Assembly (NCBI GenBank): GCA_048885865.1
Contig: JBHLLF010000045.1
Coordinates: 1-20,643, forward strand
Direction: 5' to 3'
Length of the DNA: 20,643 nt
Source: Candidatus Hermodarchaeota archaeon
GTDB lineage: Archaea; Asgardarchaeota; Thorarchaeia; Thorarchaeales; Thorarchaeaceae
Each line of letters begins with the position of its first letter. Positions within the stretch are counted from its first letter, which is position 1. The notes below the pieces were generated by a model, which was not told the DNA's origin, searched no databases, and saw only the letters and a program-made list of their open reading frames with translations. The translations under genes were made by a program, and so were the position numbers. This document shows, in pieces, positions 918 through 7,366 of this stretch.

Positions 918-950
918 AATACCTAAGACCATCGCACAGTAGTGAAGAAT

Positions 951-2309
951 ATGGGCCGCCTATTTGGGACAAACGGAGTTCGTGGGGTGACTAATGAAGG
1001 ACTCACTGTAGAACTCGTACTCGATTTGGCGAGAGCAGCTGGAACAATACTGGGACCAGGAAAGTTTGCTATTGCACGAGACTCCAGATATGGTGGGCGG
1101 ATGTTCTATAATGCAGCCATCTCAGGACTTCTCTCCACAGGGTGTTCAGTTGTGGATGTTGGGCTCGTTCCCACTCCTACCCTACAATTCATGATACCAA
1201 AGCTGAGTTGCGTGGGTGGAGTCATGGTTACAGCATCACACAATCCACCAGATTTCAATGGAGTCAAAGTGATGGGGGCCAATGGTATCGAGGTCTCCAA
1301 GGAGGTTGAGGCCAAGATCGAGGATGTCTACTTCGATAAGAACTTCAAGATGGTGGACTGGGACTCGATAGGGGAGGTCTCCAAATACGATGCAGCCATC
1401 ATGGACTTCATCGATTCGATAAAATCACATGTTGATGTTGCAGCCATTGAGAAAAACAGCTTCACAGTAGTGGTGGATGGAGCCAACAGCGTAGGTTCAC
1501 TGGTCACACCAATTCTTCTGAGAGAGATGGGCTGCAAGGTACTCTCCCTCAATGGCCAACTTGATGGTGGCTTTCCAGGCAGAAATCCCGAACCCACACC
1601 AGAAAATCTAGTCAAGCTAAGAGAAACAGTCCGGTCAGTAGGAGCTAACCTTGGGATTGCACATGATGGTGATGCAGACAGAGCAACGTTTGTAGATGAA
1701 ACCGGACGCATCCTCTGGGGCGACCAATCATTTGCCATTGTTGCTTCCCGTGTGCTCTCAAAGAAGAAAGGTTCTACCCTTGTGACGCCTGTAAGTAGTG
1801 GTCGACTCATAGAAGATGTCGTGAGAAACGCTGAAGCCAAGATTGATTGGACTGTTGTTGGAAGTGTTGTAGTGTCCCACCGACTAGAAGAAACCGGTGC
1901 TGAACTAGGGGGTGAAGAGAATGGTGGTATATTCTATCCTCCTCATCAACCAGTCCGAGACGGCGCAATGACCGCCGCTCAAGTAATCGAAATAATGGCT
2001 GTTGAAGGCAAGAAGCTCTCTCAGTTGGTGGCAGAGCTGCCAACATACTTCAGCACGAAGATTAAACTCCCTGTTCCTGTTGAGAAGAAGGAAGCTCTAC
2101 TTGATATGCTTGTGGAGTTAACTGATGAACAGGAAAGAATCACCATTGACGGTGTAAAGCTCATTTTCGATGATGGTTGGGTTCTAATACGTCCCTCCGG
2201 AACCGAACCGCTTTACCGTTGTTTCTCCGAGGCCACGACTCAGGAAGAAGCGAACAGACTTGCAGAGCACGGTGCAGAGCTAATCAAAGAAGCAATCACT
2301 AATCTCTGA
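951..2309 (+). CDS. glmM: Alpha-D-phosphohexomutase (phosphoglucosamine mutase / PMM-PGM family)
   Basis: LFGTNGVRG N-terminus, catalytic TASHNP, metal-binding DGDADR, sugar-binding GGEENG and phosphate-binding RPSGTEP. Exact substrate cannot be decided from sequence. Start ATG 951 (alternative GTG 942). Confidence 0.9.
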   Translation: MGRLFGTNGVRGVTNEGLTVELVLDLARAAGTILGPGKFAIARDSRYGGRMFYNAAISGLLSTGCSVVDVGLVPTPTLQFMIPKLSCVGGVMVTASHNPPDFNGVKVMGANGIEVSKEVEAKIEDVYFDKNFKMVDWDSIGEVSKYDAAIMDFIDSIKSHVDVAAIEKNSFTVVVDGANSVGSLVTPILLREMGCKVLSLNGQLDGGFPGRNPEPTPENLVKLRETVRSVGANLGIAHDGDADRATFVDETGRILWGDQSFAIVASRVLSKKKGSTLVTPVSSGRLIEDVVRNAEAKIDWTVVGSVVVSHRLEETGAELGGEENGGIFYPPHQPVRDGAMTAAQVIEIMAVEGKKLSQLVAELPTYFSTKIKLPVPVEKKEALLDMLVELTDEQERITIDGVKLIFDDGWVLIRPSGTEPLYRCFSEATTQEEANRLAEHGAELIKEAITNL

Positions 2310-2324
2310 CTGAAGAGAATCCCA

Positions 2325-2972
2325 TTATGGCCATAGTATTGCAGATGCGGCTCTACCTACAGTGCCCTCAAGCCCAGCCAGATATTCAAGAAGTCGTCCG
2401 CACTCTGCATCACCCAACTGCCTGAAATCTATGAATTTCTCGATTTCCTGTTTCACAATTCGGACTAGGATGACCTCGGTATCTTCAGAAACATTATCAT
2501 CATCTGCATGCACTGCTTTCACTAGTGACTCTAGGTTCTTCACAAGCTGTTGCAGCGGCTGTATTCTTCCAGATTGGAATGGGTTCCTGAATTTCATTGC
2601 AACTATTGCTAGGAACAATCCAATACCAAATGAGATCACAACAGCGGATAGAAAATGCACCCCAAAATAGTATGCCATACCAGATTCTGCAGCCGAGAAA
2701 CCAATTATTATCTCATAAGCAATGAGCGCCCCAAGAGAGTAATCAATTATGGTGAATAAGCTCCATCTCGTTGATAATGACTTTAGCAGATCTCGCCGCT
2801 CCTCCGCCTCACTTATGGATTCCTCATTATCATTAGGGTAGATGATTGGAAGTCGCCATGCTTTCTTAATCAATCCACTACTCTGCTTTGTTGTGATGTA
2901 GATTAGGAGGAGCAGTATTAGGAATAAAAGAAGACGGATACTTGTAAGGAGAGTCACATCGGAAGACTGCAT
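2325..2972 (-). CDS. Hypothetical membrane protein (about 3 TM segments plus C-terminal helical domain)
   Basis: 215 aa ORF filling the space between glmM and the next gene, with hydrophobic stretches near aa 8-27, 70-95 and 100-127. No family recognised. Confidence 0.7.
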   Translation of the reverse strand: MQSSDVTLLTSIRLLLFLILLLLIYITTKQSSGLIKKAWRLPIIYPNDNEESISEAEERRDLLKSLSTRWSLFTIIDYSLGALIAYEIIIGFSAAESGMAYYFGVHFLSAVVISFGIGLFLAIVAMKFRNPFQSGRIQPLQQLVKNLESLVKAVHADDDNVSEDTEVILVRIVKQEIEKFIDFRQLGDAECGRLLEYLAGLEGTVGRAASAILWP

Positions 2973-3099: not shown

Positions 3100-4509
3100 A
3101 TGTCACAGGTTGCAGAAGACAGTCCAACAGAGGCTGTTGAAACTCAGGAACGAGTTAGATATTGGCAAATCGATGCTCTGAAAGCGTTTGCCATTGCTCT
3201 GGTTGTTTTGGACCATAGTCTCACCTGGGATCTAAAGAGCCTAATCGGTGGAGTCTTCTGGGAGCGGACCGCCATCCCCATATTCATGATCGTCATGGGC
3301 TTCAACATTGGACTCTCCTTCAAGAATTCAGGAGCCACCACACTTCGGGAGCTATATTCACGAGAATATTTCAGGAAGAAGATCGAGCGTTACGTCCTTC
3401 CTTTCCTTCTTCTCTACTGGGGTTCTCTAATACTGGGACTATATTTCAACTCATTCACTTGGAATGAATATACCCTGATAGGATGGCTGCCGTTCTGGGG
3501 TCCTGGCAACTGGTTTATCCCTGTGCTTTTCAGTTCCATTCTCGTGCTCCCAATCGTCTACAGAGGCTACATTTCATATCCAAAGCTTACAGTTTTCCTA
3601 TGTTTCCTAAGCGAAATCCTTCTGCAGCTGTTTCTGTTCTATAATGTTCCATTGGTACTAGTGGATGGGCACTGGCAATATACAAGCTATGAAGCAGCAT
3701 TCCTGACCAGTGTCATAAGAACCAATATCTTGTTCCTTCTGCCAGCTGTTGGTCTTGGTCTATGGTTCACCGATAATCCTAGCATCACTGCAAAGCGAAA
3801 TCGGCTCATGTGGCTTGCTTTGCCTCTGAGCGTTATTTACATGATTGCCTATCAGTTTCTTAATTACCGAGCCTACGTGATTAACGGAGTCTACAGGCAC
3901 AACTTGATTTGGGGGGACTACACATTTCTAGTAATCCCATATACTGCCTTTCTGTTTCTGCTTGCGATGAGATATCTGCCCTCGACACCCCAGACAAGAC
4001 TCCAGACAATTATCCAACGAATTGGTAGAGCCAGCTACCATATCCTTCTAATCCAAATACTCTATTACTCAGTCTGGTACTACGACCATCCGAATTGGGC
4101 AAATGTAGGTTTTGGTTCAGATGTCCTGTTTCATGTCTGGTTCTATCTCTTCAGTCTTATCCTGACTTTTGCTGGAGGGATTGCATGGTATGAAGCTGAA
4201 CGAGCCGCCTATCAAAGAGGCAAAGCTTGGTGGCGTCATAACTACATGAAAAGAGTAGTCTACTTGGGCACTGCTCTAATCACCCTAGCACTGATGGGCT
4301 TTGTTATTGATATAGTAAGTGACCTTACAGGGCTGACTGCATATAGTCGAAGATATGGTATTATTGTCTTCAACCGTTATACAGGACCAGGGATAATGGC
4401 CAATTTCATTGTCATCCTGATTATGATCGCGATATGTCTGTTCCTTATTTACAGAGGCTTTACAACCATGGATGATGAAATCCCACTTGAGTTGTTGGAA
4501 TCAAGCTGA
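3100..4509 (+). CDS. Acyltransferase family 3 (OafA-like) polytopic membrane protein with extra C-terminal TM segments
   Basis: N-terminal R..WQIDALKAFAIALVVLDH motif, AIPIFMIVMGF, YFRKKIERYVLPF, GNWFI and IGRASYHILLIQ follow the AT3 consensus. About 12 TM segments. Confidence 0.85.
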   Translation: MSQVAEDSPTEAVETQERVRYWQIDALKAFAIALVVLDHSLTWDLKSLIGGVFWERTAIPIFMIVMGFNIGLSFKNSGATTLRELYSREYFRKKIERYVLPFLLLYWGSLILGLYFNSFTWNEYTLIGWLPFWGPGNWFIPVLFSSILVLPIVYRGYISYPKLTVFLCFLSEILLQLFLFYNVPLVLVDGHWQYTSYEAAFLTSVIRTNILFLLPAVGLGLWFTDNPSITAKRNRLMWLALPLSVIYMIAYQFLNYRAYVINGVYRHNLIWGDYTFLVIPYTAFLFLLAMRYLPSTPQTRLQTIIQRIGRASYHILLIQILYYSVWYYDHPNWANVGFGSDVLFHVWFYLFSLILTFAGGIAWYEAERAAYQRGKAWWRHNYMKRVVYLGTALITLALMGFVIDIVSDLTGLTAYSRRYGIIVFNRYTGPGIMANFIVILIMIAICLFLIYRGFTTMDDEIPLELLESS

Positions 4510-4578: not shown

Positions 4579-4598
4579 AAAGGGTCCTGAGACCCTTT
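4579..4598. terminator. GC-rich hairpin between convergent genes
   Basis: AAAGGGTC-CTGA-GACCCTTT: perfect 8-bp stem, 4-nt loop. Confidence 0.6.
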
Positions 4599-4627: not shown

Positions 4628-4963
4628 CTACTCTTCAGGCTTTGATTCAGCGACTTCTTCTTCATCGAAGTCGAAGTCCTCAAGCGGCTCAGGTGCAGGA
4701 GTGGTCAGCATAGTCCAGCCAATCCACATCGCAATCACCATGATCAACACAGCTGCAGCCCAAATTGGCAGAATGATCAAGAACATCGGATCTGGGAGGA
4801 AGAAGTCATGCCAGAATCCAGATGGGAATATTGACTCGACCCAGGCTGTTATGCCCGGCCCGGTAATAGCGTTCTGGACCAATACGAGCGCCCATGTGTA
4901 GTACAATAGCACCAGAAACGCGAAGATGAATATCAGTGCACCAAGTATCTTTTCCTTGCCCAT
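4628..4963 (-). CDS. Small 2-TM membrane protein with acidic tail; DPM2-like
   Basis: Two TM helices with YYTW, HDFFLP and WIGWTMLTTPAPEP. GAGGT SD upstream. Pattern resembles eukaryotic DPM2 as recalled from memory. Confidence 0.75.
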   Translation of the reverse strand: MGKEKILGALIFIFAFLVLLYYTWALVLVQNAITGPGITAWVESIFPSGFWHDFFLPDPMFLIILPIWAAAVLIMVIAMWIGWTMLTTPAPEPLEDFDFDEEEVAESKPEE

Positions 4964-6166: not shown

Positions 6167-7366
6167 ATGGGATTGATCTATGATAGAGAAAAATGCACTG
6201 GCTGCATGCTCTGTCCGAAGGTATGCAACTTCGATGCAATTGAGAAGGATGGTGACAAGGTCAGATTTGACTTCGACAAGTGTGTTCTCTGTGGCTCATG
6301 CGAGGAAATATGCCCGGAAGACGCCATTCTAATCGAACGTAAAGCTGTGGATACGGTTGAGATCGCCAAGTACAAGGATGTCTGGGTCTGGTGTGAAACC
6401 AATGACGGACGTCTGAGAAATGTCGCTTACGAGCTTGTGACCAAGGGCCGTGAGCTAGCTGACAAGCTTGGTGAGAATGTGGTTGCAGTCCTTCTTGGTC
6501 ATGAAACCGAACACCTTGCAGAGTCCCTGATTCATCAGGGTGCTGACAAGGTCTTGGTTGTTGACGATAAAGCCTTCGAACACTACACCACTGATGCATA
6601 TACCATCGCAATGGTTACACTGATAGCTCCAAGAAAACCATCCATTGTTCTCTATGGAGCAACAAGCAATGGAAGGGATCTGGCTCCACGAATTGCTGCT
6701 AGGATGGCTCTAGGTCTGACAGCAGACTGTACTGGACTTGACATTGACGACGAGCGTCAGCTGGTTCAGACTCGTCCTGCGTTCGGTGGTAATATCATGG
6801 CTGAAATCCTCTGTCCATACACTAGGCCTCAGATGGCCACAGTCCGACCAAATGTATTCAAGCCTAGTGAGCATGATAGGTCGCGCACTGGAGAGATAGA
6901 AAAGGTCGAAATCAAAATTGGAGCCAACCAAATCAGGACTAGAGTTCTCGAGAGTGTGAAAGAAGTTGTTGAGGGTATGAAATCTGTGGAGGAGTCTGAT
7001 ATTGTGGTCTGTAGCGGTCGAGGAATCAAGGATCCTTCCAATCTGGATCTTCCTCGTGAACTAGCCCGTCTGCTAGACGCAGCTGTTGGGGGTTCTCGTC
7101 CAATTGTTGATCTCGGATGGCTGCCTCCATCGCAGCAGGTTGGTCAGTCAGGTCGTACAGTTTCTCCAATGCTTTACTTTGCTCTTGGCATCTCAGGAGC
7201 TATCCAACACTGTGCAGGAATGAGTTCTTCCGATATCATAGTTGCAGTGAATAAGGACCCTGAGGCTCCAATCTTTGAGATTGCTGACTTCGGCATAGTT
7301 GGTGACATATTCGAGGTAGTCCCTGAGATAATCGAGGAGATTAAACGAATTCAAGCTGAGAGGTAG
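6167..7366 (+). CDS. etfA: Electron transfer flavoprotein alpha subunit with N-terminal 2x[4Fe-4S] ferredoxin domain
   Basis: [11 protein letters not shown] and [12 protein letters not shown], then [39 protein letters not shown] and GISGAIQH. Starts 2 nt after the etfB stop. Confidence 0.96.

What the first reader, a model, noticed from the sequence alone, without database searches (positions are those of the whole stretch)
4628..4963. Archaeal DPM2-like protein, a possible unrecognised eukaryotic signature protein
Seen: EKILG-(TM)-YYTWALVL...HDFFLP..FLIILP-(TM)-WIGWTMLTT. From memory, human DPM2 reads DQVVG-(TM)-YYTAWVILLP...HKYFLPRAYAVAIP-(TM)-FISYVMLKT, so motif order and spacing match over the whole length apart from a longer loop here. 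DPM2 is the regulatory subunit shared by dolichol-phosphate-mannose synthase and GPI-GlcNAc transferase. The WIGxT(M/L)xTTP.P.P acidic tail also recalls a widespread uncharacterised archaeal family. Inference: this protein may bridge that family and DPM2, implying an archaeal origin of the multi-subunit DPM synthase.
Basis: partly seen in the sequence, partly recalled or inferred. Interest (0 to 1): 0.75.

Follow-up and report, generated by a model that had tools for sequence, protein, structure and literature searches.

The report
Asgard DPM2/PIG-P-family membrane hairpin protein
This is a real 111-residue, two-helix membrane protein of a Thorarchaeote, related to DPM2 and PIG-P (small helper subunits of eukaryotic lipid-sugar transferases); the kinship is already published, and its archaeal partner enzyme is still unknown.

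Summary
The ORF is real. It lies at 4628..4963 on the minus strand, encodes 111 aa, and is under strong purifying selection (dN/dS 0.04-0.10). It folds as a two-TM hairpin with an invariant tail, WIGWTMLTTPAPEPLEDFDFDEE.

Kinship to DPM2/PIG-P is supported. The window protein scores just under Pfam's DPM2 cutoff (22.2 vs 27.3 bits). An 85%-identical ortholog and Hermod-/Promethearchaeota orthologs pass it. One Asgard member passes both the DPM2 and PIG-P cutoffs over its full length.

The family is near-universal in Asgard archaea (281 of 301 genomes) and extends into Bathyarchaeia and Nitrososphaerota, so it is not Asgard-specific. It is also not unrecognised. Kay et al. (Nature 2025) list PF07297 (DPM2+PIGP) as Asgard-derived, and automatic annotation already names Thor members DPM2. 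This scan has also flagged the family on other genomes.

The 'multi-subunit DPM synthase' inference is only partly supported. TM-less DPM1-type synthases do exist in Asgard archaea: all 32 frames found are at most 274 aa. None was found in this MAG or in a closed Thor chromosome that keeps the invariant tail. DPM3 was not found, and the genes are never adjacent.

Gene context instead links the family to sugar-nucleotide synthesis (GlmM, ManC/GlmU-like transferases). The most likely role is a small accessory subunit of lipid-linked glycosylation, partner unknown.

The parts
4628..4963 (-). Gene for the 111-aa DPM2/PIG-P-family two-TM hairpin protein (stop codon at 4628-4630)
   Evidence: ORF listed. 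Homologs. Pfam DPM2 E=1.7e-4, 22.2 bits. dN/dS 0.04-0.10. AF2 pLDDT 91.
4877..4957 (-). TM helix 1 (residues 3-29). It includes the invariant G8 after the N-terminal K-E-K and ends in the YYTW motif (Y21 is invariant among Thor orthologs; Y22, T23 and W24 are at least 90% conserved).
   Evidence: AF2 helix H3-29. Conservation in A1 and A2. The DPM2 profile N-terminal positions 2-30 match this region in Hermod orthologs.
4703..4789 (-). TM helix 2 (residues 59-87), preceded by the conserved P57
   Evidence: AF2 helix H59-87. Best DPM2-profile stretch is residues 50-87 to profile positions 35-71 of 75.
4658..4726 (-). Signature at the end of TM2 plus the tail: WIGWTMLTTPAPEPLEDFDFDEE (residues 80-102). 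Almost every position is invariant in 34 Thor orthologs. The W-I-G-x-T-x-x-T-T-P-x-P core is at least 90% conserved family-wide. This is the likely docking site for a cytosolic partner (inferred).
   Evidence: Invariant columns and nearly invariant columns. Tail pLDDT 60-76. C-terminal HhH_5/DUF4332 fusions in relatives place this end in the cytoplasm.
942..2309 (+). Context gene: archaeal GlmM (phosphoglucosamine mutase, UDP-GlcNAc pathway). It is the conserved convergent neighbour of the hairpin gene in Thor loci. Here it is displaced by two inserted genes (2325-2972 and 3100-4509).
   Evidence: TIGR03990 Arch_GlmM 560.6 bits vs cutoff 439. Neighbour cluster 5 is present in 22 loci.
4579..4598 (.). 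Perfect 8-bp stem with a 4-nt loop between the convergent genes, about 30 nt after the stop codon. Possibly a terminator; weak evidence.
   Evidence: Sequence. Fold -15.2 kcal/mol but z only -1.6. Not called by the consensus terminator scan.

Best explanation
The gene encodes a member of a near-universal Asgard and Thermoproteota family of small two-TM hairpin proteins that is homologous to eukaryotic DPM2 and PIG-P. Both termini most likely face the cytoplasm. The hairpin probably sits in the membrane beside a lipid-linked (polyprenyl-phosphate or inositol-lipid) glycosyltransferase as a non-catalytic accessory subunit. The invariant, acidic, proline-rich tail (TTPAPEPLEDFDFDEE) probably docks a cytosolic partner. 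Shown here: the gene is real, the two-TM fold, the kinship to DPM2/PIG-P, the distribution, and the recurrent neighbourhood with sugar-nucleotide genes. Inferred: the accessory-subunit role, the topology, and tail docking. The partner is not identified. In this lineage it is probably not, or not only, a DPM1-type synthase.
For: Homology: DPM2 is the top Pfam hit for the window protein. 24 of 34 Thor orthologs hit DPM2 and 9 of 34 hit PIG-P, with no other family. P0008 (85% identical) scores 30.5 bits and P0029 27.9 against the 27.3 cutoff. P0126 passes PIG-P (39.8 vs 39.3; residues 5-108 to profile 3-101 of 121) and DPM2 (32.6; residues 4-79 to profile 2-71 of 75). Hermod and Promethearchaeota orthologs score 33.4, 33.4, 32.8 and 27.5 bits on DPM2. 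Literature: the PF07297 tree is assigned to Asgard ancestry. Fold. Core gene: 281 of 301 Asgard genomes, 87 of 90 high-quality genomes, 28 of 30 families. Context in three lineages with three different arrangements: GlmM convergent in 22 Thor loci; a ManC-like nucleotidyltransferase divergent about 150 bp away in Hermod-type loci, with GT4 and DUF1616 within 4 kb; a roughly 250-aa nucleotidyltransferase about 50 bp downstream on the same strand in at least 11 Bathyarchaeia loci. Cytoplasmic C-terminus: natural fusions to HhH_5/DUF4332.
Against: No profile-profile test against eukaryotic alignments could be run. The window protein itself is below the Pfam cutoff. Short-loop Bathyarchaeia members give only weak DPM2/PIG-P hits (at most 24.6 bits among those scored individually), with equally good hits to a generic two-TM holin family. 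No glycosyltransferase is fused to the family. None lies directly adjacent, although a GT4 lies within 4 kb in the Hermod-type loci. Sugar-nucleotide neighbours suggest a pathway but do not show a physical complex. Fold searches return only generic hairpins. The archaeal profile does not detect the PfDPMS TM domain.
Confidence: 0.55

Rival explanations
1. One reading: the protein is the DPM2-type subunit of a human-like, multi-subunit Dol-P-Man synthase. It anchors or stabilises a TM-less DPM1-type catalytic subunit, possibly doing the job of DPM2 and DPM3 in one protein through its tail.
For: TM-less DPMS-type GT2s exist in Thorarchaeota. L102 (229 aa, no TM) matches the catalytic domain of P. 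furiosus DPMS 5MLZ at 3.3e-42, against 1.8e-19 for the next GT2. A same-genus GT2 (L100, 239 aa) matches at 9.5e-26. All 32 DPMS-type frames found in 30 of 101 Asgard genomes are at most 274 aa and none has the fused four-TM form. These soluble-looking enzymes must reach the membrane somehow. All 30 of those genomes also carry the hairpin gene.
Against: No DPMS-type gene was found in this MAG by tblastn or genome search. None was found in the closed Thor chromosome G304, even at E<=1e-3, yet its ortholog P0046 keeps the invariant tail. The hairpin is in about 93% of Asgard genomes, while the DPMS type was found in about 30% at the threshold used. The two genes are never linked (different contigs or more than 170 kb apart). 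No DPM3 was found in 61 genomes, although that search had no positive control. The 30-of-30 co-occurrence is expected by chance (0.93^30 is about 0.11).
Confidence: 0.15
2. The protein shares ancestry with DPM2/PIG-P but works outside glycosylation. It would be a general membrane tether whose acidic proline-rich tail recruits some other conserved cytosolic factor.
For: The tail, not the helices, is the most conserved part. Relatives fuse the tail to HhH_5/DUF4332 domains that have no link to glycosylation. In 31 Bathyarchaeia loci the upstream same-strand gene is S-adenosylhomocysteine hydrolase. The family is far more universal than any single glycosyltransferase type examined.
Against: Association with sugar-activating genes recurs in three lineages with different gene orders. 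Both eukaryotic relatives act in lipid-linked glycosylation (established knowledge; Gandini et al. 2017, PMC5526996).
Confidence: 0.2
3. There is no true homology. The DPM2/PIG-P hits reflect hydrophobic composition and chance motif matches between short two-TM proteins.
For: Distant members hit the unrelated two-TM family Phage_holin_3_6 about as well (26 of 60, best 2.4e-6). The archaeal profile's best solved-structure hit is the DHHC20 hairpin (E=0.035). The window protein is below the Pfam cutoff.
Against: Thor orthologs hit only DPM2 and PIG-P. Several Asgard members exceed curated cutoffs in full-length, co-linear, single-stretch matches, and one does so for both related families. An independent published pipeline placed Asgard sequences in the PF07297 tree.
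Confidence: 0.07

Closest known systems
DPM2 (Pfam PF07297), regulatory subunit of eukaryotic type-II Dol-P-Man synthase and component of GPI-GlcNAc transferase
   Same: Small two-TM hairpin. The match runs co-linearly through both helices: the N-terminal D/E-K-x-x-G, the YYT-W end of TM1, a conserved P before TM2, and the I-x-x-x-M-L-x-T end of TM2. Close orthologs pass the curated cutoff.
   Different: About 25 residues longer than the 75-position Pfam DPM2 model. The loop is longer and holds two short helices. The tail is invariant, acidic and proline-rich; as I recall, DPM2 has a short basic tail. No DPM1-type or DPM3 partner was detected in this genome. The window protein itself scores 22.2 bits, below the 27.3 cutoff.
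PIG-P (Pfam PF08510), subunit of eukaryotic GPI-GlcNAc transferase
   Same: Two-TM hairpin followed by a conserved segment after TM2. The PIG-P profile match in P0126 runs through the tail (residues 5-108 to profile 3-101 of 121) and passes the cutoff. 35 of 60 broad-family members hit PIG-P. The neighbouring GlmM makes the precursor of UDP-GlcNAc, the sugar donor of GPI-GnT.
   Different: The window protein hits PIG-P only at E=1.2. No PIG-A domain or PIG-C (GPI2) was found in the genome. The Thor GT4 enzymes lack the PIGA domain.
TM domain of type-III Dol-P-Man synthase (P. furiosus DPMS, PDB 5MLZ)
   Same: Gandini et al. 2017 (PMC5526996) describe its two TM-helix pairs as topologically equivalent to DPM2 and DPM3, and report similarity of TMH1 and TMH3 to human DPM2.
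   Different: There the hairpins are fused to the catalytic domain. Here the hairpin is a separate gene, and the Asgard DPMS-type enzymes found are TM-less. The archaeal family profile did not detect 5MLZ at E<=10.

Membership tests
DPM2 (PF07297) | Whole-protein score at or above Pfam's gathering cutoff (27.3 bits), window protein itself | tested here: not met
   22.2 bits, E=1.7e-4. Top hit, in two stretches.
DPM2 (PF07297) | Orthologs of the window protein pass the gathering cutoff | tested here: met
   P0008 (85% identical) 30.5; P0029 27.9; P0126 32.6; Hermod L031 and L032 33.4; L042 32.8; L033 27.5. 24 of 34 Thor orthologs hit at E<=0.01.
DPM2 (PF07297) | Small two-TM hairpin matching the profile co-linearly over both helices | tested here: met
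   AF2 helices 3-29 and 59-87. Window residues 50-87 match profile 35-71 of 75. P0126 4-79 and L042 7-80 match profile 2-71 of 75.
DPM2 (PF07297) | Works with a TM-less DPM1 catalytic subunit and with DPM3 | tested here: inconclusive
   A DPM1-type GT2 was not found in this 87%-complete MAG or in closed Thor genome G304. It is present in a same-genus genome and in 14 of 31 Thor genomes. DPM3 was found in 0 of 61 Asgard genomes, but that search had no positive control.
DPM2 (PF07297) | Enhances Dol-P-Man synthase or GPI-GnT activity | not testable with these tools
   Needs biochemistry or complementation.
PIG-P (PF08510) | Score at or above the gathering cutoff (39.3 bits) | tested here: not met
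   Window protein 9.4 bits, E=1.2. Only one family member tested individually passes (P0126, 39.8). 35 of 60 hit at E<=0.01.
PIG-P (PF08510) | Partners PIG-A (GT4 with PIGA domain) and PIG-C present | tested here: inconclusive
   PF08288 and PF06432 were not found in the own genome. The PF06432 search had no positive control. Thor GT4s lack the PIGA domain.
Phage_holin_3_6 (PF07332), a generic two-TM family | Score at or above the cutoff (28.4 bits) | tested here: not met
   No hit for the window protein or any Thor ortholog. The best distant member scores 28.0.
Type-III DPMS TM domain (5MLZ) | Detectable sequence similarity of the hairpin to PfDPMS TM helices | tested here: inconclusive
   Profiles A1 and A2 did not list 5MLZ at E<=10. 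HMMER filters may drop weak matches.

The most novel reading that the evidence does not exclude
A human-like, split Dol-P-Man synthase predates eukaryotes. In Asgard archaea the TM-less DPM1-type enzyme would be held at the membrane by this hairpin protein, with the invariant acidic tail doing what DPM3's cytosolic tail does in mammals. In some Thorarchaeota that enzyme is encoded directly upstream of a PIG-M-like Dol-P-Man-using GT-C enzyme. The same hairpin would also serve other lipid-sugar transferases, which would explain why it is more universal than DPM1 and why eukaryotes split it into DPM2 and PIG-P.
Probability: 0.15. Interest if true: 0.7.

Novelty: new member of a known kind. Interest (0 to 1): 0.38.

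Why it matters
DPM2 and PIG-P are poorly understood helper subunits of two ER enzymes: Dol-P-Man synthase and GPI-GlcNAc transferase. A single-copy, near-universal archaeal relative offers a simpler system for learning what such hairpins do. It also bears on how the ER glycosylation machinery was assembled from archaeal parts. The kinship itself is already in print, so the open and testable question is the archaeal partner. Asgard DPMS-type enzymes are all TM-less. The hairpin persists with an unchanged tail in a closed Thor genome that has no such enzyme. Its gene repeatedly sits beside sugar-nucleotide genes.

Tried and rejected
1. Profile-profile comparison with eukaryotic DPM2/PIG-P was not possible. 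No tool returned eukaryotic sequences, and I did not type them from memory. A 'longer' database search with a short first sequence and E<=10 found nothing, because that length band is fixed at 220-2000 aa.
2. Sequence search of solved structures with the family profiles found no DPM2 or PIG-P chain.
3. Fold searches (Foldseek PDB; VIA-align wide) gave only generic helical hairpins, Z<=5.2.
4. The protein-language-model Atlas returned only archaeal clusters.
I built neighbourhoods from the search for related loci instead.
6. A whole-genome PF07297 scan missed the window gene and flagged an acyltransferase on contig 9. I rejected that hit as spurious.
7. A search for fusions to glycosyltransferases found only HhH_5/DUF4332 fusions.
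8. The two tandem TM-less GT2s on contig 25 are not DPM1-like: they have no solved-structure match and only weak PgaC-like hits.
9. I first read Thorarchaeota as lacking GT2 altogether, based. One search corrected this: 30 of 31 Thor genomes have GT2s.
10. No credible GT2-signature ORF lies within 6 kb in the 80 fetched loci; the single motif hit is dubious.
11. My iterative GT2 search from the contig-25 seeds did not spread beyond them.

Full report
**1. Observation**

The ORF listing shows an ATG-started ORF at 4628..4963 on the minus strand, encoding 111 aa.

AlphaFold2 with a 60-sequence alignment gives mean pLDDT 91:
- helices at residues 3-29 and 59-87, which form the TM pair;
- two short helices in the connecting loop (35-45 and 50-55);
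- a lower-confidence C-terminal tail.

The gene is real. More than 150 clusters at 90% identity are homologous. dN/dS against four orthologs with unsaturated dS is 0.04-0.10.

Near-identical proteins are named Candidatus Thorarchaeota by their sources, so the window comes from an Asgard archaeon. The assembly is a 3.58-Mb MAG, 87% complete.

**2. Kinship to DPM2 and PIG-P**

Pfam results for the window protein and its relatives:
- **Window protein:** DPM2 (PF07297) is the top hit at E=1.7e-4 and 22.2 bits, below the curated cutoff of 27.3.
- **34 Thor orthologs:** 24 hit DPM2 (best 4.5e-7) and 9 hit PIG-P. No other family is hit.
- **Individual orthologs passing the DPM2 cutoff:** P0008 (85% identical to the window protein) at 30.5 bits; P0029 at 27.9; two Hermodarchaeota orthologs at 33.4; two Promethearchaeota orthologs at 32.8 and 27.5.
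- **P0126 (an Asgard member):** it passes both models in single, full-length, co-linear stretches. DPM2 scores 32.6 bits (residues 4-79 to profile 2-71 of 75). PIG-P scores 39.8 against a cutoff of 39.3 (residues 5-108 to profile 3-101 of 121).

I therefore regard homology to the DPM2/PIG-P superfamily as well supported, at roughly 85-90%.

Caveats:
- Short-loop members, typical of Bathyarchaeia, give only weak DPM2/PIG-P hits (at most 24.6 bits among those scored individually). A generic two-TM holin family scores about as well on them.
- Fold searches are uninformative for a helical hairpin.

**3. The family**

An exhaustive phmmer search and alignments A1 and A2 define the family by:
- an N-terminal K/R-D/E-K-x-x-G, with the G invariant;
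- TM1;
- a variable loop;
- TM2 ending in W-I-G-W-T-M-x-T-T-P-x-P;
- an acidic tail.

In Thorarchaeota almost every position of the 23-residue stretch WIGWTMLTTPAPEPLEDFDFDEE is invariant.

Distribution:
- The A2 profile finds the gene in 281 of 301 genomes of the window's phylum, in 87 of 90 high-quality genomes, and in 28 of 30 families. It is mostly single copy.
- A pattern scan of species-representative genomes confirmed at least 339 loci. These include Thor-, Hermod-, Hel-, Jord-, Atabey- and Promethearchaeota, many Bathyarchaeia, and a Nitrososphaerote.

So this is a core archaeal gene of at least two phyla, not an Asgard-only signature protein. The only fused forms found carry C-terminal HhH_5/DUF4332 domains, which argues that the tail faces the cytoplasm. 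No glycosyltransferase fusion was found.

**4. Prior knowledge**

- Kay et al., Nature 2025 (PMC12872463), state that the 'DPM2 and PIGP' duplication belongs to ER families of archaeal origin. Their supplementary table lists the PF07297 tree with lineage 'Asgard'.
- Precomputed Pfam hits on several homologs, and an Atlas cluster auto-named 'Dolichol phosphate-mannose biosynthesis regulatory protein', show that public pipelines already make this link.
- Gandini et al. 2017 noted that the TM-helix pairs of Pyrococcus DPMS are DPM2/DPM3-like.
- Lombard 2016 proposed an archaeal origin of TM-less Dpm1.
- Oswal et al. 2008 stated that the accessory GPI-GnT subunits had not been found in archaea. 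That statement is now out of date.
- This scan has reported the same family on other genomes, with similar verdicts.

**5. Gene context**

I clustered the ORFs of 80 related loci.

- **Thor loci (22):** the convergent neighbour is an archaeal GlmM, which scores 560.6 bits on TIGR03990 against a cutoff of 439. In this window it is displaced by two inserted genes: an unknown 215-aa protein and an acyltransferase_3.
- **Hermod-type loci (five):** a roughly 350-aa Man-1-P-guanylyltransferase-like gene lies divergently. It is about 150 bp away in four of the loci; in L035 another gene intervenes. A DUF1616 membrane protein, two small TM proteins and a GT4 lie within 4 kb.
- **Bathyarchaeia loci (at least 11):** a roughly 250-aa nucleotidyltransferase follows about 50 bp downstream on the same strand. 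An S-adenosylhomocysteine hydrolase precedes the gene in 31 loci.

The recurrent link to sugar activation, in three different arrangements, is the main functional clue. No credible GT2-signature ORF lies within 6 kb in any locus; the single motif hit is dubious.

**6. Testing the multi-subunit DPM synthase idea**

What this MAG contains:
- DPM3, PIG-P, PIGA and GPI2 models find nothing credible.
- The only canonical GT2s are two atypical TM-less genes on contig 25. They are unrelated to DPMS.
- The genome does carry two GT4s, one of them beside a BshC-like gene, and one Alg7/AglH-type GPT.

What other Thor and Asgard genomes contain:
- GT2s occur in 30 of 31 high-quality Thor genomes.
- A 229-aa TM-less Thor GT2 matches the catalytic domain of P. 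furiosus DPMS (5MLZ) at 3.3e-42, against 1.8e-19 for the next GT2.
- A same-genus genome has a 239-aa GT2 that matches 5MLZ at 9.5e-26.
- Across 101 Asgard genomes, 30 have a DPMS-type match at E<=1e-25. All 32 frames are at most 274 aa, so none has the fused four-TM form.

Evidence against the idea:
- The enzyme was not found in this MAG.
- It was also not found in a closed 3.2-Mb Thor chromosome, even at E<=1e-3. That genome has no PF00535 match at 1e-8, yet its hairpin ortholog keeps the invariant tail.
- The hairpin is far more widespread than the enzyme: about 93% of genomes against about 30% at the threshold used.
- The two genes are never linked.

The conserved partner is therefore probably something more universal, or there are several partners. 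The latter would echo DPM2's two roles in eukaryotes.

**7. Verdict**

- The homology claim is supported but already published.
- 'Unrecognised' and 'Asgard signature' are not supported.
- The split-DPM-synthase inference is only partly supported.

The most likely mechanism (about 55%) is a non-catalytic membrane hairpin subunit of lipid-linked glycosylation machinery that docks a cytosolic partner through its tail. I rate the DPM1-specific version about 15%, a role outside glycosylation about 20%, and chance similarity about 7%.

Noticed in passing
L104:299-3099 (G053) and L105:166-2972 (G114), Thorarchaeota: A two-gene same-strand unit. A TM-less DPMS-type GT2 (238 or 244 aa) is followed directly by a roughly 690-aa protein with about 13 TM segments. 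That protein's only solved-structure matches are to GPI mannosyltransferase 1 (PIG-M), at E=2e-5. This suggests a Dol-P-Man synthase plus a PIG-M-like user in Asgard archaea. Neither gene was found in the window's own MAG.
   Followed up: partly
Asgard phylum sample: Every DPMS-type GT2 frame found in 30 of 101 high-completeness Asgard genomes is short (179-274 aa; the 179-aa one is cut at a contig edge). None resembles the roughly 375-aa fused four-TM type-III enzyme of Pyrococcus. I found no paper in the held library describing Asgard DPM1-type enzymes.
   Followed up: partly
family profile A2 vs PDB: The best solved-structure hit of the archaeal family profile is the N-terminal TM1-TM2 hairpin of human zDHHC20 palmitoyltransferase (E=0.035, 17.3 bits). 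It is co-linear over the whole profile, including a W-x-x-W-M-T-x-x-T-x-P-x-x-P match after TM2. The hit is marginal and could be chance.
   Followed up: no
P0199, P0211-P0225 (about 290 aa) and P0173, P0207: Relatives of the hairpin protein carry C-terminal HhH_5 and DUF4332 domains after the acidic tail. JGI annotates them as 'flap endonuclease-1-like 5' DNA nuclease'. The meaning is unknown.
   Followed up: no
window 2325-2972 (-) and 3100-4509 (+): Two genes sit between GlmM and the hairpin gene, which are direct convergent neighbours in most other Thor loci. One is an unknown 215-aa protein with no Pfam or NCBIfam hit. The other is a 469-aa acyltransferase_3 membrane protein. They are shared with only 3-5 close relatives.
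   Followed up: partly
L097:3-2666 (G000 contig 117) and L090:2-2745 (G304): In two Thor genomes a GT4 glycosyltransferase lies directly upstream of a BshC-like gene (PF10079, 52-59 bits). This resembles the BshA-BshC pair of bacillithiol synthesis, which is unexpected in an archaeon.
   Followed up: no
L084 (G000 contig 25, 14078-17472): Two tandem atypical TM-less GT2 genes (268 and 317 aa) lie beside a nucleotide-sugar dehydrogenase that is closest to UDP-ManNAc dehydrogenase. The 268-aa one, the only one searched, has no solved-structure relative.
   Followed up: partly
window 6167-7366 (+): The ETF alpha subunit carries an N-terminal 2x[4Fe-4S] ferredoxin domain. The ETF beta/alpha pair is the conserved divergent neighbour of the hairpin gene in about 22 Thor loci.
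   Followed up: no
Asgard families f14, f28, f29: Several genomes carry two matches to the family profile instead of one. This fits earlier scan notes of paralog pairs in some Asgard lineages.
   Followed up: no
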